52,934 nucleotides of DNA from Candidatus Pacearchaeota archaeon (GCA_017609795.1 JAFCDH010000001.1:1-52934); one strand, 5' to 3'. Positions 10,991 through 52,934 are shown, numbered from the stretch's first letter. Notes: generated by a model not told the origin, from the letters alone. Program-made: numbers and translations.

Positions 10991-11011
10991 ATCTTAGAAT
11001 GAATAGTTAAA

Positions 11012-11602: not shown

Positions 11603-11612
11603 GAGAAATAAT

Positions 11613-11816: not shown

Positions 11817-11829
11817 ATTGAAATAAAAA

Positions 11830-12033: not shown

Positions 12034-12044
12034 GGATTTTCTTC

Positions 12045-12077
12045 AACCAATATTGCATTAGGAATTATTGGTTTTTC
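12045..12077. terminator. bidirectional hairpin between convergent gene blocks
   Basis: AACCAATA(12045-12052)/TATTGGTT(12066-12073) perfect 8-bp stem followed by a T-run. Confidence 0.5.
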
Positions 12078-12080
12078 ATT

Positions 12081-16366: not shown

Positions 16367-19300
16367 TTTCTTTTTTTAAAAGCCCTCCTTAACCATGATT
16401 TAGCTTTTCTTCTTGCTTCATAATATTGAGGAAATTTATATATTTTTCCTTTTGCTTTTTGTTTTTCTAAAACAATTACACCACTAACTCCTGAGATAGT
16501 TATTATAAAAATCCAAAAAAGTACTGGTGATTGGTTGGTTATACATCTTGATTTTATTTCAGGAGTATCTTCTACATCTAACCAATCTCCTATAGGATTT
16601 CCTGCAAAACAAGAAAAAATCAAATCATCCAGATTTAAGCCCCCACAATCACTTGGACAGCTATAAAAACTTTCTCCTGATTCACAAAGCCCATTTCCAC
16701 ATATCGCTTTTGCTTCTATTATTATTTCTGGTTCTTCTTCTTCTTCAGGTGGTGTTGGTTCTCCTCCTCCACCTAAACTACTCGGCGTGGTATAAGTTAT
16801 TGTAAATTCTTTTGTTGTTTTATTTTCATTACTTGCTAAGTCACTTGAATAAATAGTTAAATTATATGTTCCATAATTTCCTTGAACAGCAGCTAACCCA
16901 CGAACATTACAAGTATAAGAAATATTTTCATTAGTTCCATCAAGGCTTCCAGTTGCATTATAAATTGAATACTTACAAGAAAGAGTATTTGTGTCAGAGG
17001 TAGTTGAATTAAAATAAATCATTTTAGAATCTACAGTTGTACTTATTGAAGAAAGGTTTATTTCAGGAAAAATAGTATCCACACCAAAAGTAAAATTGTT
17101 TAAAGCCCAATCTCCATTATTACTCGTATCATTGCACCAAACATTCCAGACAAATTCCGTGTCTGTTAAAGTAAAATTTGTATAATTTTGAACTCCTGAA
17201 TTAGGTTTTTTCCATGTAAAATTCTTATGCCAAGTCCCTGTAGCATTATGATAAAGTCTACAAGTATCTAAACCATTAACATCTGTTGAAGTAAAATTAA
17301 AATGAGAATTAACCCCAGTATTTAACCAAAGCCCATCTGTAGGATAATCTAAAACAGTTGATGGTGCAGTAAAAGAAAGCCCAAAAGTAACAGAAGAAGA
17401 ATTTATATTATTAAGAGTATCATTTACATAAAAAGTCAAAGTATATGCACCCTCACCTATTCCATCGATTTTAGTAACATTAAAAGTCATATTTGCACAA
17501 TCTGGAACAGTAGTATTGCTTGTAATTATATCTGTTGAATTAAAAATTCTATACCAGCAAGATTGAACACCAAGAGTTTCATCTGAAACAGTAAAATTTA
17601 AAGGAAGACTCTGATTTGTAGCATAATTTTGTGGTAGGGGTCTATATAAATCTAATAAAGGATTAGCATTATCTAAGGTAATTCTTCTTGTCCTAGTTTC
17701 ATTATAATTAGAAGCACCATCCCAAACACTAATATTATAATTATAAAACCCATCATTAAGCCCTGTCCAATTTACAACCCTTTGAGCAGTTGAATAAGTT
17801 GTTATATTTACTTGAGTTCCATTTCTATGATAAAGTCTAAAAGTAATATTTTTTTCATTTGTCTCTGTAACATTTGCATATACATAAATCCAGGTTCTTG
17901 TAAAATTTGTTTCATTAAGTTCAGTGCCAGTTCCATAGGAAATTAAAGGGTTGGTTGTGTCAATCGTGAAGGTTGTGGATTGAGTAGAGTTTGTATTTCC
18001 TACTGTATCATTACAATAAGCAGTTATTGTATAATCTCCGTCGGCAATAGAAGTGTTGGAGTAGTTCCCACCAGTTGAACTTGAATTTATAGATAAAGAA
18101 TAATTATTTAATCCAGAATTTAAACTCACAACACAGGCATTAAAATTTGTGCTTGTTAAATTTATGTGGATGAAGTTTTGTGAATAATAATTTGTATTTA
18201 CTGGATTTAAGATTCTATAATCTGGTGGAATTGTATCAATAAAAAAAGTAACATTGGAAGAATTTGTATTTCCAGCAGTATCATTTGTCCAAACCCTTAC
18301 AATATGCTTTCCATCTGTCCAAGTTATATCAGTTATATTTACTCCACAAGTTATTGAGGTGTTTAAAGTAAAAGTATCATTAGAATACCAACAAGAAGCT
18401 ATGTTTGTGTCGGCAAAGGTATATTCAACATCTAAAGTATTATCAGATGAACTTGTTCCATTTGTTGGACTTGTAATATTTATATAAGGGTGAACATTAT
18501 CTAAACTAAATACATCATTAAAATTATTTTCATTAACAGTAACATCATAAAGATGAGAAATTGTAGGATAACTAATATTTTGAGCATAAATTGTATAATT
18601 ACTATAATAAGTTGTAACTCCTCCAGTTCGATAATAATCAAATATTTCAGTTTGTGGAGTATACCCAGTATCATCTGTTGTAAAATTAAACTGAGGAGTG
18701 CCTGTAATATTATAAGCAGTTATATTTATTCCCTCAAGTGCAGAACCTGTATTTGAATCATTAACATAAGTTCTATAATACCATTTTCTATAAAGAGAAC
18801 AACCAGAACTAACATCTTCTTTTACTTTATCATAAGTTACATTTAAAAAAACATTATTAATTGATGCTGTTTCAAAGGGTGTAATTGTAACATCTACTGT
18901 TGTACTACTAATTTTTCCATCTTTTAAAAGATTATTGCTTGCACCATCTTGAAAATATACTCCATTTAGGTTATCATAAAAACTAAAATTAGTTAAATTA
19001 TTATCTAAAACATACCAAAAACCAATTGCCCATCTTGTTTCGCTTATTGTTATATCTGACCATTTATTTTTAGAACTTAAATAATCATCCCCCCACATAT
19101 TAATTCCTTCTGAAACCCCATTAGTTCCTGTAATAGTTATATTTTCTAAAACATTATTAACTGAATCTACAATATCAATACCATGGTCATAAACCCCATA
19201 ATTTCCTGTATTTATATTTATATCCTTTATTTCGATATTATCTGAACCACTAAAAATAGTAATTGCAGTAACACCAAAATTATTAATATTTCCGTTTTTA

Positions 19301-20172
19301 ATTACTGCATTATCTACTCCATTTATTACCCAAAATCCATAATTTGATTGCCCTCCTGGTTCTTCACCATTTCCTGTTAAGGTTTTTCCGTTCATATCAA
19401 ATATAATATCAGATGCTCTAAATGTAAAACAATTTCCAGCAATATTTGAAATATCTTGAGATAAAGTATATGTTCCTCCTGAATCTACAAATCCACAAGC
19501 AGAAATCTCTGGGTCTAATAATATTTCTATCTCTCCACCACCTTCTTTCTTATAACTTATTTCAAAATCATAATAAGCTGATTCATATTGTGGGAATTCA
19601 AAATTTATTTTATAAGCAAAATTTGTATCATCATAAGTTGTCTTGACTTTATCTCCTAAATAAGTCCAGTTATAAAATCTTTTTCTTTCAATTTCAAAAG
19701 AACAATCTTTTTCACAATCATAAAATTCAGTCTCATCAATACATTCATCAAAACAAGTTTCATTTGATAAAGTCTCATTATATAATTCAAATTGAGTAGA
19801 AAAATAAACATTATATTTCTTATCTTTAACTTGAGCATCCTTATCTAATAAAAATTTAAATATATCTACTGTTAAAGTATAATTAGGATTATAACCTTCT
19901 ATTATAGCATCACAAATCTTATATCCATCATTTATTGAATCAGGTTTCCAAAAACAATGCTCAACTATTTTTGCTGAAATTATAACTCCATCATTTTCAA
20001 TAATCTTCCTATTATTTTCTATTCTTTCTGTTTGCGGTTCATCAGCCAAAACAAAATAAAGACTAACACTTAAAACCAACCCAATTAAAATTATTACACT
20101 AAGTTTTCCCACACTCTTTTTATCCATTTTAAAATGTTGATTCAAATGTTGAATATTAGTTTTATAAACCAT
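16363..20172 (-). CDS. giant surface glycoprotein: parallel beta-helix + multiple Ig-like modules + C-terminal TM anchor
   Basis: NAVIKNGNINNFG/IEIKDININTGNYG beta-helix turns; repeated modules opening DTIPPD, DTTNPL, DNANPL, DTIFPE; CGNGLCESGESFYSCPSDCGG; dense NxS/T sequons; TM + basic tail. Alternative start at 20127. Confidence 0.8.
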   Translation of the reverse strand: MVYKTNIQHLNQHFKMDKKSVGKLSVIILIGLVLSVSLYFVLADEPQTERIENNRKIIENDGVIISAKIVEHCFWKPDSINDGYKICDAIIEGYNPNYTLTVDIFKFLLDKDAQVKDKKYNVYFSTQFELYNETLSNETCFDECIDETEFYDCEKDCSFEIERKRFYNWTYLGDKVKTTYDDTNFAYKINFEFPQYESAYYDFEISYKKEGGGEIEILLDPEISACGFVDSGGTYTLSQDISNIAGNCFTFRASDIIFDMNGKTLTGNGEEPGGQSNYGFWVINGVDNAVIKNGNINNFGVTAITIFSGSDNIEIKDININTGNYGVYDHGIDIVDSVNNVLENITITGTNGVSEGINMWGDDYLSSKNKWSDITISETRWAIGFWYVLDNNLTNFSFYDNLNGVYFQDGASNNLLKDGKISSTTVDVTITPFETASINNVFLNVTYDKVKEDVSSGCSLYRKWYYRTYVNDSNTGSALEGINITAYNITGTPQFNFTTDDTGYTPQTEIFDYYRTGGVTTYYSNYTIYAQNISYPTISHLYDVTVNENNFNDVFSLDNVHPYINITSPTNGTSSSDNTLDVEYTFADTNIASCWYSNDTFTLNTSITCGVNITDITWTDGKHIVRVWTNDTAGNTNSSNVTFFIDTIPPDYRILNPVNTNYYSQNFIHINLTSTNFNACVVSLNSGLNNYSLSINSSSTGGNYSNTSIADGDYTITAYCNDTVGNTNSTQSTTFTIDTTNPLISYGTGTELNETNFTRTWIYVYANVTETNEKNITFRLYHRNGTQVNITTYSTAQRVVNWTGLNDGFYNYNISVWDGASNYNETRTRRITLDNANPLLDLYRPLPQNYATNQSLPLNFTVSDETLGVQSCWYRIFNSTDIITSNTTVPDCANMTFNVTKIDGIGEGAYTLTFYVNDTLNNINSSSVTFGLSFTAPSTVLDYPTDGLWLNTGVNSHFNFTSTDVNGLDTCRLYHNATGTWHKNFTWKKPNSGVQNYTNFTLTDTEFVWNVWCNDTSNNGDWALNNFTFGVDTIFPEINLSSISTTVDSKMIYFNSTTSDTNTLSCKYSIYNATGSLDGTNENISYTCNVRGLAAVQGNYGTYNLTIYSSDLASNENKTTKEFTITYTTPSSLGGGGEPTPPEEEEEPEIIIEAKAICGNGLCESGESFYSCPSDCGGLNLDDLIFSCFAGNPIGDWLDVEDTPEIKSRCITNQSPVLFWIFIITISGVSGVIVLEKQKAKGKIYKFPQYYEARRKAKSWLRRAFKKRK

Positions 20173-21954: not shown

Positions 21955-23304
21955 TTAAAATACCCCCACCACACAGTAACCAACTCCAAATTTATCTGTT
22001 TCACAAATTCCATCTCCACCCCAAAGGATTTCACAATCTTGTTCAAATCCTATACACTCACCTAAACATTGATATTCTGTTAAAACATCACCTGTACAAA
22101 AATCAAAAAGTTCTCCAGTTTCTCCAATACAACTTCCAGGAGTTTCTATATCAAAACCATCATCTGTATCTAAACAAGCCCAATCCGAACAATAACAACC
22201 ACCGTCGTTAATACAATGCATTCCCTCATCACACCATCCACCACAAAATAAATCAATTACTTCAGAAACATGACAAGGAGTTTCAGTATAAGGCATAGGA
22301 ACACACCATCCAACTGTTTCACTTGTATACATAGGAGAACAAACAGTATCAATATCATCAGTATAACCATAACAACTTGGAAATTCACTATCATGCCTAC
22401 ATTCACAAAAAGGTATACAATCTGTATCAAAACAATCTATTGCTTCATCTAAATCATTATCTATTTCATCAGTACAAAGTTCTTCTGTATTTTCTTCTAT
22501 AATTACTTCCCCATCACAAACAGCCCTACAAGCAATTATATCACCTTCAAATGCTTCCATACAAGGAACAAATTCTCCTCCCTCATCATAATCTTCACCA
22601 CCACTATGTGAAACACAATAATCAAAAACTTCATCATAACATTCATCATAACATGCTTCTAAGTCTACATCATCATCATCATCATCTATTATTTCTCCAA
22701 CGTCTCTACATTCTCCTTCTTCACAAGTCCAAGTTTCTCCATATCTTGTTTTACAATTAATATCTTCTGAAGTATAAGTTAATTCATCATAACAATATCT
22801 TTCTCTTAAAATATTTCCCATACAAATATCATCTAAATTTGCCCCACTTAAAATACTTCCAAAAGTAATATAATCTCTTCCATCATCTGTTTCAACACAA
22901 GGAGGAATTGGAACTTCAACAATATCTCCTGGGCAATCTACTCCCGGCTTACAATCTTCTAGACTTGATTCAAATATAGCAAACTCCCCTAAGAAACTTA
23001 TATCAAAATTTCCAATAGACATATTTCCATCTACATCACAAACAGCCATATTCATTAAAATAATTCCGACACCTAAAATAATTAATCCAATCTTTAAATA
23101 ATGTTTTTTATTTTTCCAAGCAAAAAAAGCCATTACTACAAATACTATAGCAAAAATAATACAATATGTATGGTCACAGAAATGTAATTTTACTAAAAAA
23201 CCATTTGCCCAATCGTGGACTTGAGGTAAGACAAAGAACAAAGCTAAAGCTAATAATAATATTGCAAAGTTTTTCCATTTCTTTATTTCTTGTTGTATTT
23301 TCAT
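21955..23304 (-). CDS. polytopic N-terminus + large Cys/Asp/Glu-rich ectodomain protein
   Basis: 3 TM helices, then about 50 Cys in an acidic sequence including DDDDDDVD. Confidence 0.65.
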   Translation of the reverse strand: MKIQQEIKKWKNFAILLLALALFFVLPQVHDWANGFLVKLHFCDHTYCIIFAIVFVVMAFFAWKNKKHYLKIGLIILGVGIILMNMAVCDVDGNMSIGNFDISFLGEFAIFESSLEDCKPGVDCPGDIVEVPIPPCVETDDGRDYITFGSILSGANLDDICMGNILRERYCYDELTYTSEDINCKTRYGETWTCEEGECRDVGEIIDDDDDDVDLEACYDECYDEVFDYCVSHSGGEDYDEGGEFVPCMEAFEGDIIACRAVCDGEVIIEENTEELCTDEIDNDLDEAIDCFDTDCIPFCECRHDSEFPSCYGYTDDIDTVCSPMYTSETVGWCVPMPYTETPCHVSEVIDLFCGGWCDEGMHCINDGGCYCSDWACLDTDDGFDIETPGSCIGETGELFDFCTGDVLTEYQCLGECIGFEQDCEILWGGDGICETDKFGVGYCVVGVF

Positions 23305-24869
23305 CTTTTCTTACCACCTGCGAGTAATAATAACAATAATATAACACCTCCAGCTATTATAAATATTTTGTATTTATCCCAAAACTCTTGTAAATCAAAT
23401 AAATCATCTTCTTTATCTTTTAAATCTTCAATTAATTTTTGTTGTTCTTCTATTGTTAATCTTAATTGTTCAACTAATGCTTTTTCTTGTTCTAAACTTA
23501 ATTCTAAATTTGCTATGATTTCTAATTGTTCTTCTGTTGTTAATTCTAATTGATTAATTAAGTCTGCATTTTCTGCAATAGTTAATCCCATTGCTGTAAT
23601 TAATTTAGCTAACTCTTCTTTTGTAAATTCTAATTGATTAATTAATTGTGCTTGTTCATCTATTGTATCATATAAAGCTAAAATTATTTCTGCATCATCT
23701 CCAATTAAATTTTCAAGAGCTTTAATTATTTCTGCCTGGTCTGCAAAACTTAATTCCATTTCAGCTATTAGTCTTGCTTGATTTTCATTTTCAACTTGTA
23801 ATAATTGTATTAATGCCGCTTTTGCTGCGAGATTTATCTTCATTTGATTAATTAAATCTGCTTGTTCTTGTATTGTTAAATCTAATTGTTCAATTATTAT
23901 GTATTGTTCTGCAACAGTTAATTGCATTTCTGTGATTAATGTAGCTTGTTCTTCAAGATTTAATTCTAATTGTTTTATAATCTCTGCTTTTTCTGCTGTT
24001 AATAACTCTAATTGTGTTATCATAGCTAATTGTCCTTCTAAAGTAGTAGTTAAATTTTTGATTATTTCTGCTTTTTGTCCTATGGTTAATTCTAATTGAT
24101 TAATTATATCCATTAATCTTGCTTGTTCTTCATCTGAAAGTGCTACAAAATTTACTATTTCTATAAATCTTTGGTCTCTACAAATATAATAGATTCCTTC
24201 ATCTGCTTTTATCTCATTTTCAATACAATCTAAAGAAGGATAATCTATATCAAGAAATGGTCTATATTTCCATAGAGAATCTTTTGACCTAATTATTACT
24301 TTTTCAGCACAATCTCTATCATCATTTTGAATTACAATACTAAATACATTTTCATCAGCCCTTATCTTTGTTTCAATATAGTTTGCTAATCCTTGAAATC
24401 TAATATAGTCATCATCATCTGAAACTGAAAAACGGAAGGAAGTTATCGAAGCCCCTGTACTTGGTTTATTGTTCCAATTTATAGTATTTTCATTCCAATC
24501 ATTGGTTGTTTCGTGCATAACAATATCAACAGTATTACCTATAGTTGAAACATATACATACAAATCTGCTTTTGTTAAATGATTTCCTTCCCTAACTGTC
24601 CTATACAATTCACTATTTTTATCTAATTCAAATTTCATATAAGTTCTATATTCATCATCACAATCAGAACCACTTGCATATCCAAATCTTAAATAATTTT
24701 CAAATCCATAATTAGTGCTTTTATCCTCATCAACCCGAGAATCTTCTATTGGAAAAATTGCATCAGTGGTTGGTTGATAAACAGCAAATAAATCTAATTT
24801 AGGTAAAACAAATATAGCTAAGACTAATAAAATTCCAATGATTATTAATGTGTTATTTTGTTTTGTCAT
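23301..24869 (-). CDS. anchored stalk protein: DNRLRE/CBM96-like head + 17 x 14-aa coiled-coil repeats + TM
   Basis: TNYGFENYLRFGY..YMKFEL..WNENTINWNNKP; tandem ELTxxEQAxLIxQL units; C-terminal TM + KKR. Confidence 0.75.
   Translation of the reverse strand: MTKQNNTLIIIGILLVLAIFVLPKLDLFAVYQPTTDAIFPIEDSRVDEDKSTNYGFENYLRFGYASGSDCDDEYRTYMKFELDKNSELYRTVREGNHLTKADLYVYVSTIGNTVDIVMHETTNDWNENTINWNNKPSTGASITSFRFSVSDDDDYIRFQGLANYIETKIRADENVFSIVIQNDDRDCAEKVIIRSKDSLWKYRPFLDIDYPSLDCIENEIKADEGIYYICRDQRFIEIVNFVALSDEEQARLMDIINQLELTIGQKAEIIKNLTTTLEGQLAMITQLELLTAEKAEIIKQLELNLEEQATLITEMQLTVAEQYIIIEQLDLTIQEQADLINQMKINLAAKAALIQLLQVENENQARLIAEMELSFADQAEIIKALENLIGDDAEIILALYDTIDEQAQLINQLEFTKEELAKLITAMGLTIAENADLINQLELTTEEQLEIIANLELSLEQEKALVEQLRLTIEEQQKLIEDLKDKEDDLFDLQEFWDKYKIFIIAGGVILLLLLLAGGKKR
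23421..24140 (-). repeat. 17 tandem 42-nt (14-aa) coding repeats
   Basis: Exact 14-residue register from DEEQARLMDIINQL to RLTIEEQQKLIEDL; DNA string AATTCTAATTGATTAATTA recurs 3 times. Confidence 0.85.
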
Positions 24870-36410: not shown

Positions 36411-36515
36411 ATAAATTTAAATACCTTAATATCTTAAATAAATTGTCTCCAAGGGGTTTTTTAACTCTTTTTGACAATCAACAACCAACATTTGGACAAC
36501 ATTCAAAATTCAAAA

Positions 36516-38261
36516 ATGGAGCAAAATTTTACTAGCCAGTATCTCAACTTTTTAAAAAAAGAAGGATTGATAGATGAAATAATAAGTGGGGCAACAAACA
36601 ACCCAGTAGATACAATTACCTTTTCTAAAACTCAAGATTCTTTTTCTTTTCCACAACCAAATTTAATTTATAGTAAAAATAATAGAGAAGAAATTGAACC
36701 TTATATTATAGAGTTAGATTACCAAGCCAAAAAATTAAAAGAATTAGGATTAGAAATCATTTCAAGAAGAATAAAAAAGAAATGGAAAAAGGGGCAGACT
36801 GTTGAATATAAATTAAGAAAAAAATCTTTTTTTGATGATGAATACATAGAAATCTTAAAAGGGATTCCTGCTAATCACAAGGTAAGAATTGACAAAGCAA
36901 ATGGAAAAGCTAAATTAGTTGGTCCTAATTGCAGAAACAAACTAAACATAAAAGGAGAAACAGATTGGATTTATTTTCAAGGACAAAAAAGAGAATATAA
37001 AAAAAATATAGAAGATGATTTTTCTCTGCCAGACATTTCTTTAACTAAACCAAAACCATTAAAGATGGCAATAAAAGATATTCCTATTATGGTTGGATTG
37101 GATGGAAGCATAGTCTGTATCCCCCACAGACACGAGCCAAATAATATTGCTGTTGTTGGAAGCAAGGGGACAGGAAAAACCCTAATACTTAATAGGCTTG
37201 CTTCAGAAATTCTTTGGAATTGGAAAGAAGCTCCCATAATTATAAATGACATCCAGCAAGAATGTGAGGTTTGGAGTGAGCCTTTAGAAAATATAGAATG
37301 GGCTAATCACTTAAAACTTATAGATGAAAAACCTTTTGCTTCTCCAATTATTTATATTTATCCTCACACTTCAGATTTAAAATTAGATTATAATGAATTA
37401 AAAAGCCAGATAAATTTTGTTGAAACAACACTTCCTTTTTCAGAAGTAATCAATAAAGCGGAAATTTATTTGAAATTAGAAAAAGACAAGGGAACAATAA
37501 GATATATTTGGGGGATGAAAGAAGAGCTATTGGGATGTGAAACCCCGGGGGAAGTTACTAGTTTAATCGAAGAGAAATATGACCAAAGGAAATATGAGAC
37601 TATGAAAAACAAAATGGTTGTTAGTTTTGAGAATGTCTTTAATGATGAAATCCTTAATATAACTAATAAAGAATATCCTTGTTTTTTAGAAAGTGGTGAC
37701 TTTAAAGGAAATCCTTTTGTTGTCTTAGCTAAGATTGGATTGATTCCTTGTTTTGAAACTTATGATTTAAACAACAAAAGATATATGCCAGAAGTGATAA
37801 GCTATCATTTAGAAAGTATTTTTGAAAGTAAATTTAGAGGAAAAATTTTAGAAGGGAAAACTGTCTATATAATATTTGATGAATTAACTCACATTTGTTC
37901 TGATGATAATAAAAATTCTGCTTATGATTCTGTCTGTAAATTATATACAAGGGGAAGAAAATTAGGAATTGGAAATGTTTGTGCAACACAAAACTATTCT
38001 AAGATTCCAAGAAAGGTCAAAAATAATATTGACTTTGTTTTTGCTTTTAAACATTCAAGTGAAGAAGAAGTAACCTTAATTAAAAAAGATTATGATTTAA
38101 AAGATATAGATAAAGATGAGATATTTAATTTAGAAAGTTTTGAGGTTTTAGGAATTACCAACGAATATTTTAATTGTTATAAAAATGGGGAAATAAATAA
38201 AAAAAAAGTTGTTCAGGGAAAAATAATTTTTCCAATGAGCAACCACATGGCGCCGTTATAA
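36516..38261 (+). CDS. HerA/FtsK/VirB4-superfamily P-loop ATPase
   Basis: Track ORF from TTG 36471; first ATG at 36516; Walker A VVGSKGTGKT, Walker B VYIIFDELTH, RGRKLGIGNVCATQNYSKIP. Confidence 0.75.
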   Translation: MEQNFTSQYLNFLKKEGLIDEIISGATNNPVDTITFSKTQDSFSFPQPNLIYSKNNREEIEPYIIELDYQAKKLKELGLEIISRRIKKKWKKGQTVEYKLRKKSFFDDEYIEILKGIPANHKVRIDKANGKAKLVGPNCRNKLNIKGETDWIYFQGQKREYKKNIEDDFSLPDISLTKPKPLKMAIKDIPIMVGLDGSIVCIPHRHEPNNIAVVGSKGTGKTLILNRLASEILWNWKEAPIIINDIQQECEVWSEPLENIEWANHLKLIDEKPFASPIIYIYPHTSDLKLDYNELKSQINFVETTLPFSEVINKAEIYLKLEKDKGTIRYIWGMKEELLGCETPGEVTSLIEEKYDQRKYETMKNKMVVSFENVFNDEILNITNKEYPCFLESGDFKGNPFVVLAKIGLIPCFETYDLNNKRYMPEVISYHLESIFESKFRGKILEGKTVYIIFDELTHICSDDNKNSAYDSVCKLYTRGRKLGIGNVCATQNYSKIPRKVKNNIDFVFAFKHSSEEEVTLIKKDYDLKDIDKDEIFNLESFEVLGITNEYFNCYKNGEINKKKVVQGKIIFPMSNHMAPL

Positions 38262-46389: not shown

Positions 46390-46752
46390 TTATAAATGTT
46401 TTGTTTTTGTTTTTTTATATTCTTCTCTTAACTCACTAATATTCTCGTTCATCTTTTCTATATTGAAATCAAAAGTTCTTATTTGCCTCTGGAGTTTTCT
46501 TTTCTTAATCAATTCATTATAAATTTCCATTACTAAAGGATTAGATTTCTTTTCTACTATCTTATGGATTTTTTTTGTAAGAACCATTAAATTATCTAAG
46601 TCCTCGTTTCCCCCCTTCCGTTTTGGAACAATATGATGAACACTAAGATTCTTTTTGCTCAATGTAATTTCACAAAACCTTTCATCCTCAGGAAATAAGG
46701 AAATTAATTCTATTACAATTTTATCTCTCCCTCTTCTTTTTATAACTTTCAT
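46390..46752 (-). CDS. HNH endonuclease
   Basis: SVHHIVPKRKGGNEDLDNLMVLTKKIH. Confidence 0.65.
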   Translation of the reverse strand: MKVIKRRGRDKIVIELISLFPEDERFCEITLSKKNLSVHHIVPKRKGGNEDLDNLMVLTKKIHKIVEKKSNPLVMEIYNELIKKRKLQRQIRTFDFNIEKMNENISELREEYKKTKTKHL

Positions 46753-46753
46753 C

Positions 46754-47749
46754 TTAAAACATTTTATTTAATTCTTTATAAATCTCTTCTGAAGTAAATT
46801 TAACTATCCTTTTTCTTCCACCACCCCTTCCAAGATTTTTATGATAAGTTTCTATTACAGAATATTTTTCAAAAGTATTTAATAATTGAGAAATCCTAGC
46901 CTTAGAATAAAATTTCATTTTCTTTTCCAGATTCTCTGCAGTGGTTTCATTTTTCCAATCACAAGACCCTATAATATATCTTAAAAATTCTCTTTCTGTT
47001 TCATTAATATCATTAACAAAATCAAACCAATCTTGTTTTAACATTTGTTTATAAACATTGTCTATAAAGCTATGGGTAAAATTTCTTTTTTGAATACATT
47101 TAAGGGCTATATGGATTAATACTCTTGCAGAACCTTGCTGTCCTGCTATTGCAGAAATATAATTTAAAACCCCATCCTCAATCTTAGGTATCTTTGTTTT
47201 TATTTGTTTAATCCTTGAAATTAAAATATCTTTTAATTCTATAGAATTATAAGCAGGAAGACTTACTTTTTCAAAAAACAAAGTCTTTCTAGCATCTACA
47301 GGCATCTCAGAAATTATATTTCTTTTCATTGTTATAATAATTATTGGAATCATTGTGTTTCTATAAATTGTATTTAAATTATTAAACAATTGATTGACCC
47401 TGCTTATTTTATCTATCTCATCTATAATTAAAATGATTGGTTCTTCCTTAATCTTTTCTATTGTTCTTTTTAATAATTCCTCATTAGTTTTTATATTAAA
47501 ATTAAAGATTTTTTTTAAGGTCTTGTAAGGTGTTTGTGTTTCTAAACCAGAAACATAAATTGCATTATCTTGTTCTTCCAAAATCTTTTTTATAATGGTT
47601 GTTTTTCCACTCCCTGTAACACCTAATATTGCTAAATTAGTCCCACATTTATATTCTTTAAAATTAATAAAAACCTCCCTTATAACCTTCATTTGTTTGT
47701 CTCTATGTAAAATTTCTTTGGGTATATAAAAGTCTGATAATTCTAACAT
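46754..47749 (-). CDS. cdc6: Orc1/Cdc6 AAA+ replication initiator
   Basis: Walker A GVTGSGKTT, Walker B LIIDEIDK, C-terminal winged-helix-like region; adjacent ORB repeats. Confidence 0.85.
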   Translation of the reverse strand: MLELSDFYIPKEILHRDKQMKVIREVFINFKEYKCGTNLAILGVTGSGKTTIIKKILEEQDNAIYVSGLETQTPYKTLKKIFNFNIKTNEELLKRTIEKIKEEPIILIIDEIDKISRVNQLFNNLNTIYRNTMIPIIIITMKRNIISEMPVDARKTLFFEKVSLPAYNSIELKDILISRIKQIKTKIPKIEDGVLNYISAIAGQQGSARVLIHIALKCIQKRNFTHSFIDNVYKQMLKQDWFDFVNDINETEREFLRYIIGSCDWKNETTAENLEKKMKFYSKARISQLLNTFEKYSVIETYHKNLGRGGGRKRIVKFTSEEIYKELNKMF

Positions 47750-48300: not shown

Positions 48301-48410
48301 CTTCCCCTTTTTGTATTTTACTTAATATTTCTAAACACCCCCCATTTAAATAACTTTTGTTAATGGTTAATGTTAGTTTATTTAAATGACAAAAACAGTC
48401 CGAAAAGTTA

Positions 48411-48857
48411 TTAATATCTGAAAACTGTCCGAATAGTCATTCTTTCTCCAAACCAAGTAGAATCTACAATTAAAGTATCTTCATTATCATTAAAAAACAA
48501 AGCAGAGATTTGTATTAATTTTTCTATAATAAATTTTGTGCTTTCATCATTATTTAATGTGCTTCTTGGAGGAACATAGCTAATTAATCCTTGCTCAAAC
48601 ATCCATTTTAAATCTGTCTGAGTTCTTCTGTAACTCATTCCATTATAAGACATCATACAAAGAGACTTTATTATATCTTTAAAATTTGATTTTGGTCTGC
48701 CAGTTATTTGTAATCGTTCAAAATTGAGGGGTTCGATAAAATCGCATAGATTTTGGATAAAATTTTGTTTTTCAGTTTCAAGAGTTAAAGTATTCTTCTG
48801 CAAAGCTATAACTGAATCTTGTTTCTGATGAATACTTAATTTTGTTTGAAGTTCCAT
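48411..48857 (-). pseudogene. truncated IS5-family-like transposase (N-terminal DUF772-like part only)
   Basis: GRPKSNFKDIIKSLCMMSYNGMSYRRTQTDL resembles the IS5/InsH N-terminal domain; no DDE domain follows. Confidence 0.4.
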
Positions 48858-48864
48858 ATAACTA

Positions 48865-48949
48865 TTGGTACCAACTACTATTTAAACTTATTGGTACCAA
48901 AACATATATATTCGTTGGTACCACAATATTTATATACTCTTGGTACCAA
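48865..48949. repeat. four TTGGTACCA(A/C) palindromic boxes at 24-26-nt spacing (iteron/operator array)
   Basis: Boxes at 48865, 48891, 48915, 48940, each followed by an A/T-rich TATA-like stretch; they fill the 101-nt divergent intergenic region. Confidence 0.75.
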
Positions 48950-48958
48950 TTAATAAGA

Positions 48959-49780
48959 ATGAGGCTTCAAAAACATAAGGTTAGAAAAAGTGGTGATAAA
49001 GAATATTACAAATGGGTTCTTGTTGTGCCACCCAATAGAATTGAACAACTTGGATGGAAAGAAGGAATTGAGTTGAAAGATGAAGTTAAAGGAGAATCTC
49101 TTTGCATACAACCTCTTTCTAAAGAAGAATTAAAAGGAATCCAGGAAAAACCTTTATACGATGATTTCAAGAAATCAATAAAGACCATCTTAGAGAGACA
49201 TCCAAAAGGATTAACTTGGACACAGATAAGAGACAAATTAAACTTTCCACAAAAATATCCAAACAATCAATGGGTAAAGAAGTTAGAAAAGGATATTGGA
49301 TTAAAGAGAATTAAAACTGGTGGAGATTTGTTCTGGAGCTCAGAAAATGAAACGATTTACACAATAGGTTATGAAGGATATACTATTGAGAAATTTATTA
49401 AAAAATTAAGAGACAGCAACATTCAGCAATTAATAGACGTAAGAGAGATTGCTCTTAGTAGAAAAAATGGATTTTCAAAAACAATTTTAAGTAAAAGTTT
49501 GAAAGATGCTGGAATAAAATATAAACACATTCCAGAACTTGGTTCTCCAAAGCAAGTAAGGCACCAGTTACATAAAGACTTAGATTATGAAAAATTCTTT
49601 AAGGAATATAAACAACATATCAATGACCCAGACATTTTAGATAATATCTCAGATATAGAAGGAAGGGCGAGAAGGAAAAAAACAGTTCTATTATGTTATG
49701 AAAGGGATTATAAAATATGCCATAGAAGCATCATAGCAGAAGAGCTTAAGAGAAGGGGGTGGAAGGTTAATCATCTATAA
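48959..49780 (+). CDS. AbrB/SpoVT-like + winged-helix + DUF488 protein
   Basis: Track ORF from 48842 runs through the repeat array; ATG at 48959. VLVVPPNRIEQLGWKEGIEL; IYTIGYEGYTIEKF..LIDVREIALSRKNGFSK..YKHIPELG..LLCYERDYKICHR. Confidence 0.7.
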   Translation: MRLQKHKVRKSGDKEYYKWVLVVPPNRIEQLGWKEGIELKDEVKGESLCIQPLSKEELKGIQEKPLYDDFKKSIKTILERHPKGLTWTQIRDKLNFPQKYPNNQWVKKLEKDIGLKRIKTGGDLFWSSENETIYTIGYEGYTIEKFIKKLRDSNIQQLIDVREIALSRKNGFSKTILSKSLKDAGIKYKHIPELGSPKQVRHQLHKDLDYEKFFKEYKQHINDPDILDNISDIEGRARRKKTVLLCYERDYKICHRSIIAEELKRRGWKVNHL

Positions 49781-49781
49781 A

Positions 49782-50537
49782 ATGGTATTATTAAAGAATT
49801 TAATAGTTATAGGTCAAGGAGCTCCAAACCAATTAAAAGATGGGAGACAATCGGTTTGTGTTTGTGCTTGTAAATTAGATAGCAAGGAATTGATAAGAAT
49901 ATATCCCGTCCCAATTGGTTGGTTAAGAAAATGGGATATTTTTGACGCAGAAGTTGAAAAAAATCCAAGAGACCATAGGGAAAATACCTGGAAAATAAAA
50001 AATTCTAAACAAGATTGGAAGAAAATTTATAAATGGATAGACAGAAAAGAGGAAAAGTATCCAGATAAAAATAAGGAGGGATTAATAAAATCAATTGGAT
50101 TTAGTGTATTAAGCGATTTGATTGATAACAAGAAGAGTTTTGGCATCATAAAGCCCAAGATAGAAAATTTCGAGCTTGAACAAAAAAATAAAAGCACCTC
50201 AAAACAATTAACACTAAATTTTGGAGATGAACAGGACTTAGATGAGCCATTCACAATTATTAATCAGAAAGACTATAAATTTAAACCATATGTAGCTTAT
50301 AAATGTGCAGGAAACTGTAAATGTAAAAAGAAAGTACACAGACAAAGCATTTCAGAATGGGGATGTTATGAATTTATGAGGAAAAATCCTGGAAAAGAAG
50401 AACAGCTAAAAGATAACCTTAGATTATTTGACCCTGAGTGGAATGTCTATCTTTTAGTCGGAAATATTCATAAAGCACCACAAACATATATTATCATTGA
50501 TATTTTAAGATTTAAAAAGAAGGAGTTTAAAAAATGA
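49782..50537 (+). CDS. hypothetical protein (operon partner, Cys cluster CAGNCKCKKK)
   Basis: Track ORF; 1-nt gap upstream, ATGA overlap downstream. Confidence 0.55.
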   Translation: MVLLKNLIVIGQGAPNQLKDGRQSVCVCACKLDSKELIRIYPVPIGWLRKWDIFDAEVEKNPRDHRENTWKIKNSKQDWKKIYKWIDRKEEKYPDKNKEGLIKSIGFSVLSDLIDNKKSFGIIKPKIENFELEQKNKSTSKQLTLNFGDEQDLDEPFTIINQKDYKFKPYVAYKCAGNCKCKKKVHRQSISEWGCYEFMRKNPGKEEQLKDNLRLFDPEWNVYLLVGNIHKAPQTYIIIDILRFKKKEFKK

Positions 50538-51205
50538 ATTTTAAACTTTCTCCTTCTACTCTTAATATTATGCAAGAATGTCCAAGATGTTTCTGTCTCT
50601 CTCAACATAATGTCTGGAAAAGACCACCATCAATTTTTCCATCACTCCCCTCTGGGATGGATAGAATCCTAAAAACACATTTTGATAAATTCAGAGATAA
50701 AGGCGAGCTTCCACCAGAACTTTGTGATAATTCTCATTGCAAGAACATTGATAATTCTCATTGCAAGAACATGAAACTATTTGATGATGTAGAGAAAATG
50801 AAAGTTTGGCAATCAAATTTTAAAGGTATAAGTTGGACAGATAAAAATGGAAACAAATTACATGGAGCTGTAGATAATATTTTAGTAAAAGGAAAGAAGC
50901 TTATTGTTTTAGATTACAAGACAAGAGGTTATGCTCTTAAGGAAGATACAGCAGAACATTATAGATTACAACAAAATATTTACAATTTCTTGTTAAGAAA
51001 AAACGACTATCAAACAGAAGATTATTTTTTCTTGTTATTTTATGTTCCAAAAGAGGTTATGCCAACAGGAGAAGTTATATTTGATACAGAATTAGTCAAG
51101 ATGAAAGTAGATGTTTCTCAGGCAGAGAAGACTTGGAAAAAAGCACTAAAACTTTTAAACTCTGATTGTCCAACTAAATCATGCGAATGGTGTGAAGGAA
51201 GATGA
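50534..51205 (+). CDS. Cas4/RecB-like PD-(D/E)xK nuclease with Fe-S-type cysteines
   Basis: N-terminal CPRC, HGAVDNI, VLDYKT, QQNIYNF, C-terminal CPTKSCEWC. Confidence 0.6.
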   Translation: MNFKLSPSTLNIMQECPRCFCLSQHNVWKRPPSIFPSLPSGMDRILKTHFDKFRDKGELPPELCDNSHCKNIDNSHCKNMKLFDDVEKMKVWQSNFKGISWTDKNGNKLHGAVDNILVKGKKLIVLDYKTRGYALKEDTAEHYRLQQNIYNFLLRKNDYQTEDYFFLLFYVPKEVMPTGEVIFDTELVKMKVDVSQAEKTWKKALKLLNSDCPTKSCEWCEGR

Positions 51206-52934
51206 AAAAAGCAAAGAAAAAAACAACGAAGAAGACTAAGAAAAAGCAAAAGAAAGAATCTATTAAATTAGGAGAGTATATTAGGGAATCCAAAAAAGAG
51301 ATTAAGAAAGATGAAGTAGAAATAAATGTTGAGATTCCTAAACAAGTAGAGTTCTTTAAAACCCCTGTAAGATTTGGAAACATCCCTGTTGACACTCTTC
51401 CTCTTGGGTGTGATGAAAAGGAACAATACAGAAAACTATATCCAAAGGTTTCTCTTCCTTTCCAGATTGTTGAAAGAGTTACATTAGGACATCCAAAATT
51501 AGAAGCAAACAAATTAATCTTTGGAGATAATTTACATTTAATGAGGATGTTGCCTTCTAATTCAATTGACCTCATTTATATTGACCCCCCATTTTTTTCT
51601 GGTAGAAATTATAATGTGGTTTTCGGAGATTCAAATGAAGTTAGAAGTTTTACAGATATATGGGAAGGTGGAATGCCTGGTTATTTAACTTGGTTAAATG
51701 CAAGATTATTAGAGATGAAGAGGTTACTGAAACCTACGGGTTCTATTTTGGTTCATTTAGACCATCATGCAGGGCATTATGTTAAGGTTGAGATGGATAA
51801 AATTTTTGGTTATGAAAATTTCCGAAATGAAATAGTTTGGCATTACTTTATGGGTGGGAAAGCATCTACTTTTTTTGGTAGGAAACATGATGTTATTTTA
51901 TGGTATTCTAAAGGAAAGGAATGGAGTTTTAATAAAATGCAAAAGAAGAGAAGATTGGACTTTAAGCCATCTCTTCCCGCAAAATCTTCAACAGGGAAAA
52001 AGATAGAAGATAAAACTGGAAAAGATGAATTTGGATATTATAGTATTGTTTCTATGGATGATGTGTGGGATATAAGAGGAGTATTTAATATGGGAAAAGA
52101 ATATATGGGCTATCCTACACAGAAGCCTGAAGAATTACTAAAAAGATTTTTAGAAGCATTATCCAAACCAGGAGACGTAGTAGCAGATTTCTTTTGTGGG
52201 GGAGGAACAACTCCTGCAGTTGCTCAGAAGTTAGGAAGAAGATGGATTGCTTCGGACATCTCAAAGATTGCTGTTTCTGTTACAAGAGATAGATTATTAA
52301 GAGATATTTTAGGAGATGATGGAAAAACAGTTCAACAATCAATAACAAAAGTTCCAGACATTGAGGTTTCTCACTGGGGAGTTTATGAAGTTCCAGAATT
52401 AATTAAAATGAATGAAGAGTCTTTTAGAAATTTTATTATCTCTGCTTATAACGGAAGATTATCAAGTATGGAAGGACTTATTCATGGATATAAACAATCT
52501 ATTCCCCTGTTTGTGGGGAGTCCATCTCAAGAAAAACCAATTACAGAAAAAGAAGTTGTTGCTTTTGCTAAAGAGATTGTTAAGAAAAGAGGACATCACT
52601 CTGGAACAATGATTTCTTGGGGATTCACGCCTGGAGCTCAAAAAGCCGCACAAGAACTTAAAGCACAGCATGCTTTGGCTATTGATTTTGTAAAAATAGA
52701 TTTGGTCAATATTGAATCAGAGAAGTTTAGAGAACATATTTCAAAGTACGGTGGAGAATATAAACAACTCCTTAAATTTATTCTTCCGCCACAAGTTAGA
52801 ATCTCTCATAAAAAAATTCAAGATACAAAATATGAATTTGATGTTTCAGAATCTGTTTCATTAAATCCAGAAGGAAGAATAATTAATGTTCAATGGGATT
52901 TTAGTTACAATGGAGAAAGATTCATTTCAACTCC
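51202..52934 (+). CDS. beta-class N6-adenine/N4-cytosine DNA methyltransferase (partial, runs off window)
   Basis: Hand-translated open frame from the ATGA overlap; IYIDPPFF (motif IV), YPTQKPEELLKRF, ADFFCGGGTT (motif I); not in the track because there is no stop. Confidence 0.85.
   Translation, partial: MKKAKKKTTKKTKKKQKKESIKLGEYIRESKKEIKKDEVEINVEIPKQVEFFKTPVRFGNIPVDTLPLGCDEKEQYRKLYPKVSLPFQIVERVTLGHPKLEANKLIFGDNLHLMRMLPSNSIDLIYIDPPFFSGRNYNVVFGDSNEVRSFTDIWEGGMPGYLTWLNARLLEMKRLLKPTGSILVHLDHHAGHYVKVEMDKIFGYENFRNEIVWHYFMGGKASTFFGRKHDVILWYSKGKEWSFNKMQKKRRLDFKPSLPAKSSTGKKIEDKTGKDEFGYYSIVSMDDVWDIRGVFNMGKEYMGYPTQKPEELLKRFLEALSKPGDVVADFFCGGGTTPAVAQKLGRRWIASDISKIAVSVTRDRLLRDILGDDGKTVQQSITKVPDIEVSHWGVYEVPELIKMNEESFRNFIISAYNGRLSSMEGLIHGYKQSIPLFVGSPSQEKPITEKEVVAFAKEIVKKRGHHSGTMISWGFTPGAQKAAQELKAQHALAIDFVKIDLVNIESEKFREHISKYGGEYKQLLKFILPPQVRISHKKIQDTKYEFDVSESVSLNPEGRIINVQWDFSYNGERFIST

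What the first reader, a model, noticed from the sequence alone, without database searches (positions are those of the whole stretch)
48959..52934. Candidate DNA-modification/defence operon: AbrB-wHTH-DUF488, unknown 251-aa protein, Cas4-like nuclease, DNA methyltransferase
Four + strand genes are joined by a 1-nt gap and two ATGA overlaps. DUF488 has no established function. The 251-aa protein matches nothing I recognise, apart from a Cys cluster CAGNCKCKKK. The third protein has RecB/Cas4 motifs (D, DYK, QxxxY) plus a 2+3 cysteine arrangement. The fourth is a beta-class DPPF methyltransferase with a long C-terminal extension that continues beyond the window. This could be a restriction-modification variant that uses a Cas4-like nuclease, with DUF488 and the unknown protein as specificity or sensor subunits. 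It could also be a virus-encoded self-methylation and recombination module. The adjacent IS remnant fits a defence-island-like context.
Basis: inference. Interest (0 to 1): 0.6.

Follow-up and report, generated by a model that had tools for sequence, protein, structure and literature searches.

The report
Defence-gene cargo transposon in DPANN archaeon
The four genes are the left part of a jumping-gene element, with a broken transposase, that carries three separate modules: a self-regulated DUF488 enzyme with a DNA-binding partner, a Cas4-like nuclease, and a type III-like restriction-modification system cut off by the contig end.

Summary
The single-system reading is only partly supported.

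- **An intact twin exists.** A 7.8-kb metagenome contig has transposase | DUF488 | 251-aa protein | Cas4-like nuclease | methylase | Res helicase | small PD-(D/E)XK nuclease. It is bounded by 17-bp inverted repeats and a 9-bp target duplication.
- **The unit is mobile.** Three more relatives (4.8-10.2 kb) also have exact 9-bp duplications, and one has an empty site in a related genome. The window holds the left end (48392) and a transposase stump, so the "IS remnant" is the element's own gene.
- **The genes form three modules.**
  - DUF488 and the 251-aa protein are adjacent in 25 of 25 fetched loci. They match PADLOC candidate PDC-M19, which is untested.
  - The nuclease is common on its own: 90 of 400 genomes against 5 of 400 for the 251-aa gene.
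  - Methylase, Res helicase and nuclease form a type III-like system that also occurs alone.
- **Folds.** The 251-aa protein models as a tandem OB fold. DUF488 resembles cysteine phosphatases.
- **Regulation.** Four TTGGTACCA palindromes, the only copies in the genome, bracket two divergent TATA boxes.

The biochemical role of the pair is still inferred.

The parts
48392..48436 (.). Left end of the transposon: a 17-bp terminal inverted repeat (48392-48408, AAAACAGTCCGAAAAGT) and a second subterminal GTCCGAATAG motif at 48427.
   Evidence: These are the only two GTCCGAA(A/T)AG copies in the 883-kb genome. The stretch matches the left ends of L011, L014 and L030, whose right ends carry the inverted copy.
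48411..48857 (-). Transposase stump. Residues 1-144 of an approximately 318-aa DDE_Tnp_1 (IS5-like) transposase, fused by an internal deletion to the left end. The DDE domain is missing.
   Evidence: tblastn gives 74% identity to residues 1-144 of the L003 transposase. The DDE domain maps to residues 131-312 of the intact L014 orthologue. No other copy exists in the genome.
48865..48949 (.). Operator array: four copies of the palindrome TTGGTACCA(A) at 48865, 48891, 48915 and 48940. They bracket two TATA-like boxes: TTTAAA at 48881-48886, about 26 nt from the transposase ATG, and TTTATATA at 48929-48936, about 26 nt from the g1 ATG.
   Evidence: TGGTACCA occurs 4 times against 0.43 expected, and 0 of 100 shuffles reach 4. 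These are the only TTGGTACC copies in the whole genome. The sites hold the same positions in L003, L005, L011, L012, L014 and L016, and have changed to a TAGGCGCC-like palindrome in L015.
48959..49780 (+). g1: an N-terminal DNA-binding part (AbrB/MazE-like hairpin plus winged helix) fused to a DUF488 domain with a cysteine-phosphatase-like fold. Invariant residues include C246, C254-H255-R256, D160, R162 and H190.
   Evidence: Pfam DUF488 at 7.7e-30 and PADLOC PDC-M19A at 1.4e-43. Alignment A2. AlphaFold2 model, with Foldseek top hit SsoPTP 7mpc at probability 0.99.
49782..50537 (+). g2: a 251-aa obligate partner of g1, modelled as a tandem OB fold and probably a single-stranded-DNA or DNA-end binder.
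   Evidence: PADLOC PDC-M19B at 9.6e-10. It lies directly after a DUF488 gene in 25 of 25 loci. The AlphaFold2 model has pLDDT 89. Foldseek hits are Teb1, RPA, two-OB SSBs, HIN-200 and baculovirus LEF-3.
50534..51205 (+). g3: a Cas4/RecB-like PD-(D/E)XK nuclease with four iron-sulfur-type cysteines. It is a facultative module that moves separately.
   Evidence: PDDEXK_1 at 1.2e-8 and Cas4 models. Motifs are in alignment A3. The family has 3558 clusters and is present in 90 of 400 genomes. It also sits in front of a type I restriction-modification operon.
51202..52934 (+). g4: a beta-class N6/N4 DNA methyltransferase, the Mod-like subunit of a type III-like restriction-modification system. About 40 residues are lost at the contig end, and the partner Res helicase and nuclease genes are not in the assembly.
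   Evidence: N6_N4_Mtase at 8.5e-44. It is 80% identical to the 616-aa P0056, which is followed by ResIII (671 aa) and a TnsA-like nuclease (114 aa). No continuation was found in G000.

Best explanation
**What it is (shown).** Window 48392-52934 is the left 4.5 kb of a cargo-carrying DDE transposon. Its intact relatives are about 7.8 kb or longer. The transposase is IS5-like. The ends are 17-bp inverted repeats with extra subterminal GTCCGAA(A/T)AG sites, and insertion makes a 9-bp target duplication. The element sits in a roughly 53-kb virus- or plasmid-like contig of a DPANN archaeon. This copy has lost the catalytic half of its transposase, so it could move only with help from another copy.

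**Its cargo is three modules, not one system.**
1. g1-g2 is an obligate, translationally coupled pair equivalent to PADLOC candidate PDC-M19.
2. g3 is a facultative Cas4-like nuclease.
3. g4 belongs to a type III-like restriction-modification module. Its Res helicase and small PD-(D/E)XK nuclease lie beyond the contig end.

**How it most likely works (inferred).**
- The N-terminal DNA-binding part of g1 binds the four TTGGTACCA palindromes. These bracket the two divergent leaderless promoters. g1 would therefore repress both its own operon and the transposase gene.
- The g1-g2 pair acts on DNA ends or single-stranded DNA next to a nuclease. The tandem-OB protein g2 would recognise single-stranded DNA or resected ends. 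The DUF488 domain would use its conserved Cys/His/Arg pocket for a phosphatase- or phosphotransfer-type reaction on the nucleic-acid terminus. The neighbouring nuclease (Cas4-like here; beta-CASP or PLD-helicase elsewhere) would make or resect the ends.
- The net effect would be to back up or complete restriction of invading DNA, as an accessory defence layer. It would also benefit the transposon by making its host keep it.
For: **Transposon.**
- L030 has the full gene order Tnp | g1 g2 g3 MTase Res nuclease.
- Four elements have terminal inverted repeats with exact 9-bp direct repeats: L030 24-7872, L014 1871-12073, L013 5304-15362 and L010 4713-9538.
- The flanks of the L013 element are contiguous in a related genome, G411, which is an empty site.
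- The window's left end matches these ends, and its motifs are unique in the genome.

**Modularity.**
- g1 lies directly before g2 in 25 of 25 loci.
- MTase + Res + nuclease occurs alone in L031 and L032.
- g3 is in 90 of 400 genomes against 5 of 400 for g2.
- Res and the 114-aa protein cover one restriction-enzyme model.

**Link between g1-g2 and restriction-modification or nucleases, in both clades.**
- L014, L027, L028 (embedded), L023 and L020 carry PLD-SNF2 helicase and/or Eco57I-type methylase or a beta-CASP nuclease next to the pair.
- PADLOC PDC-M19A and B match the pair. That candidate was defined by embedding in defence systems.

**Folds.** g2 is a tandem OB fold. DUF488 resembles cysteine phosphatases, and the invariant C...CHR is.

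**Operators.**
- The same sites occur with two unrelated transposase types, and also in L005 where there is no transposase. The common binder is therefore g1, not the transposase.
Against: - No experiment exists for PDC-M19, DUF488 or g2. The biochemical steps are inference from folds with low TM-scores (0.25-0.4).
- g1-g2 also occurs with no nuclease or restriction-modification system nearby (L005, L009, L021, L025). It therefore cannot strictly depend on them.
- The right end, Res and nuclease of the window's own copy are not in the assembly, so its completeness is unknown.
- The N-terminal domain assignment is sub-threshold.
- The locus sample is small: about 23 distinct loci, many cut by contig ends.
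Confidence: 0.6

Rival explanations
1. g1-g2 is a toxin-antitoxin-like addiction module, possibly of the kind in which the antitoxin is an enzyme. It would stabilise the transposon or restriction-modification island rather than attack invaders. g1 would be the autoregulating antitoxin-like protein and g2 the growth-inhibiting partner. It would also tie transposase expression to its own operator, as proposed for toxin-antitoxin pairs inside Tn3-family transposition modules.
For: - The regulator-first gene order with a 1-nt gap or 4-nt overlap.
- Palindromic operators at the promoter.
- The N-termini of g1 in the two clades weakly resemble antitoxin domains: MazE/AbrB at E 0.012-0.021 and SocA/Panacea at E 0.019.
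- g2 is more conserved than g1 between the same loci.
- The pair lies beside the transposase in two transposon families. The Tn3 precedent is PMC7157771.
- Its distribution is patchy.
Against: - g2 has no recognised toxin fold and looks like a DNA-binding protein.
- g1 keeps a conserved catalytic pocket, which a simple antitoxin does not need.
- The domain hits are below threshold.
- The recurrent nuclease or helicase-nuclease directly after g2 is not explained.
Confidence: 0.22
2. g1-g2-g3 is a DNA-end processing or gap-repair kit serving the transposon itself. It would process donor breaks and the 9-nt target gaps in DPANN hosts that have few repair genes. It would not be a defence function.
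For: - The pair always sits next to the transposase in the AbrB-type clade and shares its control region.
- The combination of an OB-fold single-stranded-DNA binder, a Cas4-like exonuclease and a phosphatase-like enzyme is what an end-processing set would look like.
- g2-like proteins in high-GC phage contigs sit in replication modules.
Against: - The other clade of g1-g2 has no transposase nearby and is embedded in restriction-modification operons.
- L005 keeps the pair in a chromosome without a transposase.
- Ordinary IS5-type elements need no such kit.
Confidence: 0.12
3. All the genes form one integrated multi-subunit restriction-modification-like machine. DUF488 and the 251-aa protein would be obligatory specificity or sensor subunits, and the Cas4-like protein the restriction nuclease.
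For: - The same order and overlapping stop/start codons occur in the window and in L030.
- A similar layout occurs in L003.
Against: - Each module occurs without the others.
- The methylase has its own Res helicase and nuclease.
- g1-g2 combines with unrelated restriction-modification types.
Confidence: 0.06

Closest known systems
PADLOC phage-defence candidate PDC-M19 (Payne et al. 2024, bioRxiv 10.1101/2024.01.29.577857; defined by 'guilt by embedding', untested)
   Same: It is a two-gene unit of a DUF488 protein followed by a partner of about 250-270 aa. Both PADLOC models match: A at 1.4e-43, and at 1.4e-74 for the distant clade; B at 9.6e-10. The pair is found embedded in or next to restriction-modification-type systems.
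   Different: - The g1 N-terminus here is a different domain (AbrB/MazE-like plus winged helix) from the PDC-M19A model, which covers only residues 95-269.
- The match to the B model is weak.
- This clade rides on DDE transposons with a four-site operator, which is not part of the PDC-M19 definition.
Type III restriction-modification systems (Mod + Res), specifically the BPTD_3080 family / PADLOC REase_III
   Same: A beta-class N6/N4 methylase is followed by an SF2 ResIII helicase and a PD-(D/E)XK nuclease, with overlapping genes.
   Different: - Res is split into a 671-aa helicase and a 114-aa nuclease.
- All scores are far below the curated cut-offs.
- The methylase matches type II models slightly better than type III models.
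- The Res half is absent from this window.
Toxin-antitoxin pairs inside the transposition module of Tn3-family transposons (Lima-Mendez et al. 2020, PMC7157771)
   Same: A small autoregulated two-gene module sits directly beside the transposase gene, inside the transposon, sharing the promoter region.
   Different: - The transposase family and mechanism differ: DDE_Tnp_1/IS5-like with a 9-bp duplication, and no resolvase.
- The host is an archaeon.
- The proteins are not known toxin or antitoxin families.
IS5-family insertion sequences and 'transporter IS' (IS elements with passenger genes)
   Same: A DDE_Tnp_1 transposase has its best match to an IS5 family model (4.9e-27). The element has short terminal inverted repeats and a fixed-length target duplication, and carries passenger genes between the ends.
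   Different: - It carries 4-9 kb of cargo, with several subterminal repeats at each end.
- The transposase score is below the family cut-off (95 against 140 bits).
- A 2019 survey stated that passenger-carrying DNA transposons had not been detected in archaea (PMC6563490).
Cas4 / RecB-type PD-(D/E)XK nucleases with an iron-sulfur cluster
   Same: It has the D, D-Y-K and QxxxY motifs, plus one N-terminal and three C-terminal cysteines.
   Different: - There is no CRISPR context.
- The score of 23.8 bits is far below the Cas4 equivalog cut-off of 65.
- The C-terminal cysteine spacing is C-x4-C-x2-C instead of C-x2-C-x5-C.
Rhodanese/protein-tyrosine-phosphatase superfamily, RapZ-C-DUF488-DUF4326 clade (Burroughs & Aravind 2023, NAR Genom Bioinform 5:lqad029). 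The paper is not held here, so its content is cited from my own memory; only the citation itself was seen.
   Same: The DUF488 domain model is closest to the cysteine phosphatases SsoPTP, plant glucan phosphatase and KAP. It has a conserved cysteine at a strand end and an arginine at a helix start. As I recall it, that paper predicts DNA-end processing roles in conflict systems.
   Different: The loop is C-x7-C-H-R (C246 to R256), not the classical C-x5-R. No activity has been shown for any DUF488 protein.

Membership tests
PADLOC PDC-M19 | Gene A matches the PDC-M19A model | tested here: met
   PDLC04505 at 1.4e-43, covering residues 95-269 only. The distant-clade orthologue in L020 matches full-length at 1.4e-74.
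PADLOC PDC-M19 | Gene B matches the PDC-M19B model and lies adjacent to gene A | tested here: met
   PDLC04508 at 9.6e-10, residues 22-208. The two genes are adjacent in 25 of 25 loci. The match is weak, so this is a divergent branch.
PADLOC PDC-M19 | Protects against viruses | not testable with these tools
   PDC systems are candidates without experimental validation.
Type III restriction-modification | Beta-class N6-adenine (or N4-cytosine) Mod methylase | tested here: met
   N6_N4_Mtase at 8.5e-44, with DPPF before FxGxG. MTase_III models reach 3.8e-43, but MTase_II reaches 1.7e-55.
Type III restriction-modification | Res subunit with an SF2 helicase and a PD-(D/E)XK endonuclease, encoded next to Mod | tested here: inconclusive
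   It is absent from the window and from the genome bin. It is present, split into 671-aa and 114-aa proteins, after the closest homologues in L030, L003, L031 and L032.
Type III restriction-modification | Asymmetric recognition site, hemimethylation, ATP-dependent cleavage | not testable with these tools
   This needs methylome data or biochemistry.
Cas4 | RecB nuclease motifs plus a four-cysteine cluster | tested here: met
   D114, D127-Y128-K129 and Q146/Y150 are invariant. Of the four cysteines, C16, C217 and C220 are invariant and C212 is not.
Cas4 | Reaches the curated family score and lies in a CRISPR-cas context | tested here: not met
   TIGR00372 scores 23.8 bits against a cut-off of 65. 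No cas genes were seen in the regions that were searched against protein families.
IS5-family transposon with cargo | DDE_Tnp_1 transposase of the IS5 family | tested here: inconclusive
   Intact orthologues match DDE_Tnp_1 at 4.3e-19 and IS5_2 at 4.9e-27, which is 95 bits against a cut-off of 140. The window copy keeps only residues 1-144.
IS5-family transposon with cargo | Terminal inverted repeats and a target-site duplication enclosing the transposase and the cargo | tested here: met
   This was shown in relatives: four elements with 13-17 of 17 matching inverted-repeat bases and exact 9-bp duplications, plus an empty site. In the window only the left end can be seen (48392-48408).
Type II toxin-antitoxin | Antitoxin with a DNA-binding domain that autoregulates through promoter palindromes | tested here: inconclusive
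   The palindromes are clear. The MazE/AbrB and Panacea hits are sub-threshold. Binding was not tested.
Type II toxin-antitoxin | Second gene encodes a toxin of a known family | tested here: not met
   g2 has no Pfam or NCBIfam family and models as a tandem OB fold.
Rhodanese/PTP superfamily (DUF488 clade) | Rossmann-like fold with a catalytic cysteine at a strand end and an arginine at the following helix | tested here: met
   The model has strand 242-246, then a loop, then helix 256-265. C246, C254, H255 and R256 are invariant. The Foldseek top hit is SsoPTP at probability 0.99, but with E 4.6e-3 and TM 0.26-0.42.

The most novel reading that the evidence does not exclude
These are the first recognised cargo-carrying unit transposons of archaea, in two unrelated DDE families. 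Both have adopted the same DUF488 / tandem-OB pair as a built-in controller. The pair's own repressor domain would gate the transposase and the cargo operon through a four-palindrome switch. The DUF488 enzyme and OB partner would together form a new kind of DNA-end-modifying defence layer that plugs into whatever nuclease or helicase-nuclease restriction system lies downstream.
Probability: 0.3. Interest if true: 0.8.

Novelty: new variant of a known kind. Interest (0 to 1): 0.6.

Why it matters
- **DUF488.** It is a large family with no demonstrated activity. This locus gives it a fixed partner (a DNA-binding tandem-OB protein), a recurrent context (directly before a nuclease and beside helicase-nuclease restriction systems) and a set of invariant residues to mutate. 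Its function becomes directly testable.
- **Archaeal mobile elements.** DPANN archaea, which have tiny genomes and few known defences, are shown to move restriction-modification and candidate defence genes on 5-10 kb DDE transposons with clean target duplications. A 2019 survey said this class of element had not been seen in archaea (PMC6563490).
- **Regulation.** The shared four-palindrome control region suggests that a cargo-encoded repressor sets the transposase level. This is a simple and testable regulatory design.

Tried and rejected
**1. Extending the contig to finish the methylase.**
- The window is the whole contig.
- No continuation, Res gene or right end was found in the other 78 contigs.
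- The only twin contig, L029 (3.4 kb), ends earlier.
- An exact search for the last 47 nt of the window in the metagenome contigs found nothing.

**2. GGTACC as the restriction-modification target.** The site is rare: 6 copies in 883 kb. A Markov expectation is 9, so there is no clear avoidance. Its clustering at one promoter points to an operator instead.

**3. Relatives of the 53-kb host element.** A search through its Orc1-like protein in the viral contigs found none. I could not show an empty site for the window's own insertion.

**4. Empty site for L030.** An exact search found none. The empty site was found for L013 instead.

**5. Sequence searches of solved structures.** These gave nothing useful for g1 or g2.

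**6. Literature.**
- No paper mentions PDC-M19 by name.
- The Burroughs & Aravind 2023 paper on DUF488 is not held. What I say about it is from memory.

**7. The transposase as the operator-binding protein.** Rejected, because the same palindromes occur with two unrelated transposases and with none.

Full report
**1.

The four + strand ORFs are at 48959-49780 (g1, 273 aa), 49782-50537 (g2, 251 aa), 50534-51205 (g3, 223 aa) and 51202-52934 (g4, 577 aa, open at the 3' end). They are joined by a 1-nt gap and two ATGA overlaps.

| Gene | Family evidence |
|---|---|
| g1 | DUF488, E 7.7e-30, residues 142-262 |
| g2 | no Pfam or NCBIfam family |
| g3 | PD-(D/E)XK, PDDEXK_1 at 1.2e-8; Cas4 models at 1.7e-8 |
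| g4 | N6_N4_Mtase at 8.5e-44, DPPF ahead of FxGxG |

In g3, D114, the D-Y-K motif, QxxxY and cysteines C16, C217 and C220 are invariant among relatives; C212 is not. The window is the whole contig C78 of an 883-kb, 79-contig bin. g4 is therefore cut by the assembly, not by biology.

**2. An intact copy shows what the locus is**

The closest homologue of g4 (P0056, 80% identity, 616 aa) lies on a 7.9-kb metagenome contig, L030. Its gene order is DDE transposase (315 aa, - strand) | DUF488 (273) | g2 homologue | PD-(D/E)XK (227) | methylase (616) | ResIII helicase (671) | TnsA-like nuclease (114).

L030 positions 24-7872 are bounded by 17-bp inverted repeats (AACTCAGTCCGAAAAGT and AACACAGTCCGAATAAT). 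Extra GTCCGAA(A/T)A copies lie inside each end. The same 9 bp, TTGTGTTTT, flank both sides.

Three further elements show the same signature:

| Locus | Element | Size | 9-bp duplication | Note |
|---|---|---|---|---|
| L014 | 1871-12073 | 10.2 kb | AAATCAATA | |
| L013 | 5304-15362 | 10.1 kb | CTGATTGAA | |
| L010 | 4713-9538 | 4.8 kb | AGAAAGAAC | different transposase with a SWIM finger; different inverted repeat GGCTTTGTTAAATAAGT |

For L013, the two flanks are contiguous in a related genome. G411 aligns across the junction at 69% identity with only a short spacer between the flanking genes.

The window contains the matching left end, AAAACAGTCCGAAAAGT at 48392-48408, with a second motif at 48427. 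These are the only such motifs in the genome.

The 148-aa "IS remnant" is residues 1-144 of the element's transposase (74% identity to L003). The DDE domain maps to residues 131-312 of intact copies and is deleted here. No other copy of the transposase is in the bin.

**3. Three modules, not one system**

*g1-g2.*
- tblastn over 25 fetched loci places a DUF488 gene directly before every g2 homologue. g2 identity in these loci ranges from 35% to 84%.
- Both proteins hit PADLOC candidate PDC-M19, A at 1.4e-43 and B at 9.6e-10. The more distant clade matches model A over its full length at 1.4e-74.
- PDC systems come from a "guilt by embedding" screen and have not been tested.
- The g2 family is small and patchy. 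It has about 55 clusters at 90% identity and 459 representative clusters among 1.84 billion proteins. It is present in 5 of 400 genomes of the phylum and in none of the same genus or family.

*g3.*
- Its family is far larger, with 3558 clusters, and is present in 90 of 400 genomes.
- It follows g2 in the window, L030, L014, L016, L022 and G340.
- It also stands directly before a type I restriction-modification operon without g1-g2 (L040), and in a primase-type element (L041).
- L003 and L007 carry a different, 393-aa Cas4-like protein instead.

*g4.*
- Its family has more than 7900 members at E<1e-30, in both bacteria and archaea.
- In every context I opened it is followed by the 671-aa ResIII helicase and the 114-aa nuclease. 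This holds with g1-g3 (L030, L003) and without them (L031, L032).
- The helicase and the small nuclease map to successive parts of one BPTD_3080 restriction-enzyme model and one PADLOC REase_III model. This is a type III-like system with a split Res.

**4. What g1 and g2 look like**

*g2.* The AlphaFold2 model, built on 34 homologues, is confident (pLDDT 89) and consists of two OB folds.
- The best solved-structure matches are Teb1 AB, RPA, the two-OB SSBs of Deinococcus and Thermus, and HIN-200 domains.
- The best viral matches are baculovirus LEF-3 single-stranded-DNA-binding proteins.
- TM-scores are low (0.25-0.4), so this is a fold-class assignment only.
- Distant g2-like genes (24-28% identity) in high-GC phage contigs lie next to ParB-like and replication-initiator genes and have no DUF488 neighbour.

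*g1.*
- The DUF488 domain models well. It is closest to the cysteine phosphatases SsoPTP (probability 0.99, E 4.6e-3), plant glucan phosphatase and KAP, and also to diphthine-synthase-type methylases.
- Invariant residues include C246 at the end of a strand and C254-H255-R256 at the start of the next helix, plus D160, R162 and H190.
- This fits the placement of DUF488 in the rhodanese/phosphatase superfamily by Burroughs & Aravind 2023. I could not read that paper here; only its citation was seen.
- The N-terminal 130 residues differ between clades. Here there is a beta-hairpin segment with weak MazE/AbrB similarity in two orthologues (E 0.012 and 0.021), followed by a winged helix. In the distant clade there is a weak SocA/Panacea-like match (E 0.019).

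**5. The control region**

Between the transposase ATG (48857, - strand) and the g1 ATG (48959) lie four copies of TTGGTACCA(A), at 48865, 48891, 48915 and 48940.
- TGGTACCA occurs 4 times in the window against 0.43 expected.
- TTGGTACC occurs nowhere else in the 883-kb genome.
- The four sites keep their positions, about -93, -66, -42 and -17 from the g1 ATG, in L003, L005, L011, L012, L014 and L016. In L015 they have changed to a TAGGCGCC-like palindrome.
- A TTTAAA box lies between sites 1 and 2, and a TTTATATA box between sites 3 and 4. Each is about 26 nt from the start codon it faces. This is the usual archaeal spacing for a leaderless transcript (established knowledge; the reading is my inference).
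- Only 5-40 nt separate the transposase start codon from site 1. No transposon end fits there, so the two genes share this region.
- The same sites occur with two unrelated transposases and also in L005, which has none. The common factor is g1.

**6. Context of the pair**

| Locus | What lies next to g1-g2 |
|---|---|
| L027 | after a PLD-SNF2 helicase and an Eco57I-type methylase |
| L028 | between such a methylase and a PLD-SNF2 helicase |
| L023 | before a PLD-SNF2 helicase |
| L020 | between an Eco57I-type methylase and a beta-CASP nuclease |
| L014 | on a transposon, followed by g3, a PLD-SNF2 helicase and an Eco57I-type methylase |
| L013 | on a transposon that also carries an AIPR abortive-infection-type gene |

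Loci with no restriction-modification system nearby also exist: L005, L009, L021, L025 and L010.

When a co-directional gene follows g2, it is usually a nuclease. Its type varies: Cas4-like, beta-CASP or PLD-helicase.

**7. Interpretation**

*Shown.*
- The locus is part of a cargo transposon.
- The genes fall into three separable modules.
- g1-g2 is an obligate pair.
- A conserved palindrome array lies at a shared divergent promoter.

*Inferred.*
- g1 represses both promoters.
- g2 binds single-stranded DNA or DNA ends.
- DUF488 carries out a cysteine-dependent phosphate-type reaction on nucleic-acid termini.
- The pair works with the adjacent nuclease as an accessory to restriction.

*Rivals.* The main rival is a toxin-antitoxin-like addiction and regulation role, as proposed for toxin-antitoxin pairs inside Tn3 transposition modules (PMC7157771). 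A second rival is a self-serving end-repair kit for the transposon.

**8. Novelty**

Each protein family or candidate system is already catalogued: PDC-M19, Cas4-like nucleases, type III-like restriction-modification, IS5-like transposases. The new elements are:
- the assembly of these parts on TSD-verified 5-10 kb DDE transposons in DPANN archaea;
- the fold assignment for the PDC-M19B-type partner;
- the four-palindrome switch shared with the transposase.

A 2019 survey stated that passenger-carrying DNA transposons had not been detected in archaea (PMC6563490). I did not find later reports, but my search was limited.

**9. Limits**
- The window's own right end and Res genes are missing.
- Many comparison loci are short contigs.
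- All functional statements about g1-g2 rest on folds and neighbourhoods.

Noticed in passing
window 50534-51205 (g3 residues about 65-80): g3 carries an 8-residue tandem duplication (NSHCKNID / NSHCKNMK) that the 82%-identical L030 orthologue and the other relatives lack.
   Followed up: partly
L013:5363-7102 (= L003:3363-5102): In this relative a 579-aa AIPR (abortive-infection-type) gene lies inside the transposon, between the left inverted repeat and the transposase. The cargo can therefore be added on either side of the transposase.
   Followed up: partly
L033-L039 (IMG/VR contigs, GC 62-67%): Distant g2-like proteins (24-28% identity, same PHROG 25907) occur in high-GC phage contigs. They sit beside ParB-like and replication-initiator genes and have no DUF488 gene nearby.
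   Followed up: partly
L025:5572-8082: A MoxR-type AAA_3 ATPase is interrupted by an intein with a LAGLIDADG homing-endonuclease domain, next to vWA proteins, a few kb from a g1-g2 pair.
   Followed up: no
G000 contig C26:14044-14820: The same genome has a second, unlinked Cas4-like PD-(D/E)XK gene. It is 40% identical to the 393-aa type that replaces g3 in L003 and L007.
   Followed up: no
window 12081-14948, 16363-20172, 23301-24869, 36471-38261: The rest of the contig has virus-like content: a Peptidase_S74 intramolecular chaperone domain, Big_13 and CBM96 surface proteins, and a weak A32-like packaging ATPase hit. The transposon therefore sits in a mobile replicon, not in the core chromosome.
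   Followed up: partly
window 46390-47749: An Orc1/Cdc6-like AAA+ gene and a free-standing HNH endonuclease lie just outside the transposon's left end. A search for relatives of the Orc1-like protein in the viral contigs found none.
   Followed up: partly
L012:2355-3125 and L015:2963-3742: In the loci with the second transposase type, the gene after g2 is a small class-I SAM methyltransferase (Methyltransf_25/31) rather than a nuclease. Both contigs end soon after.
   Followed up: no
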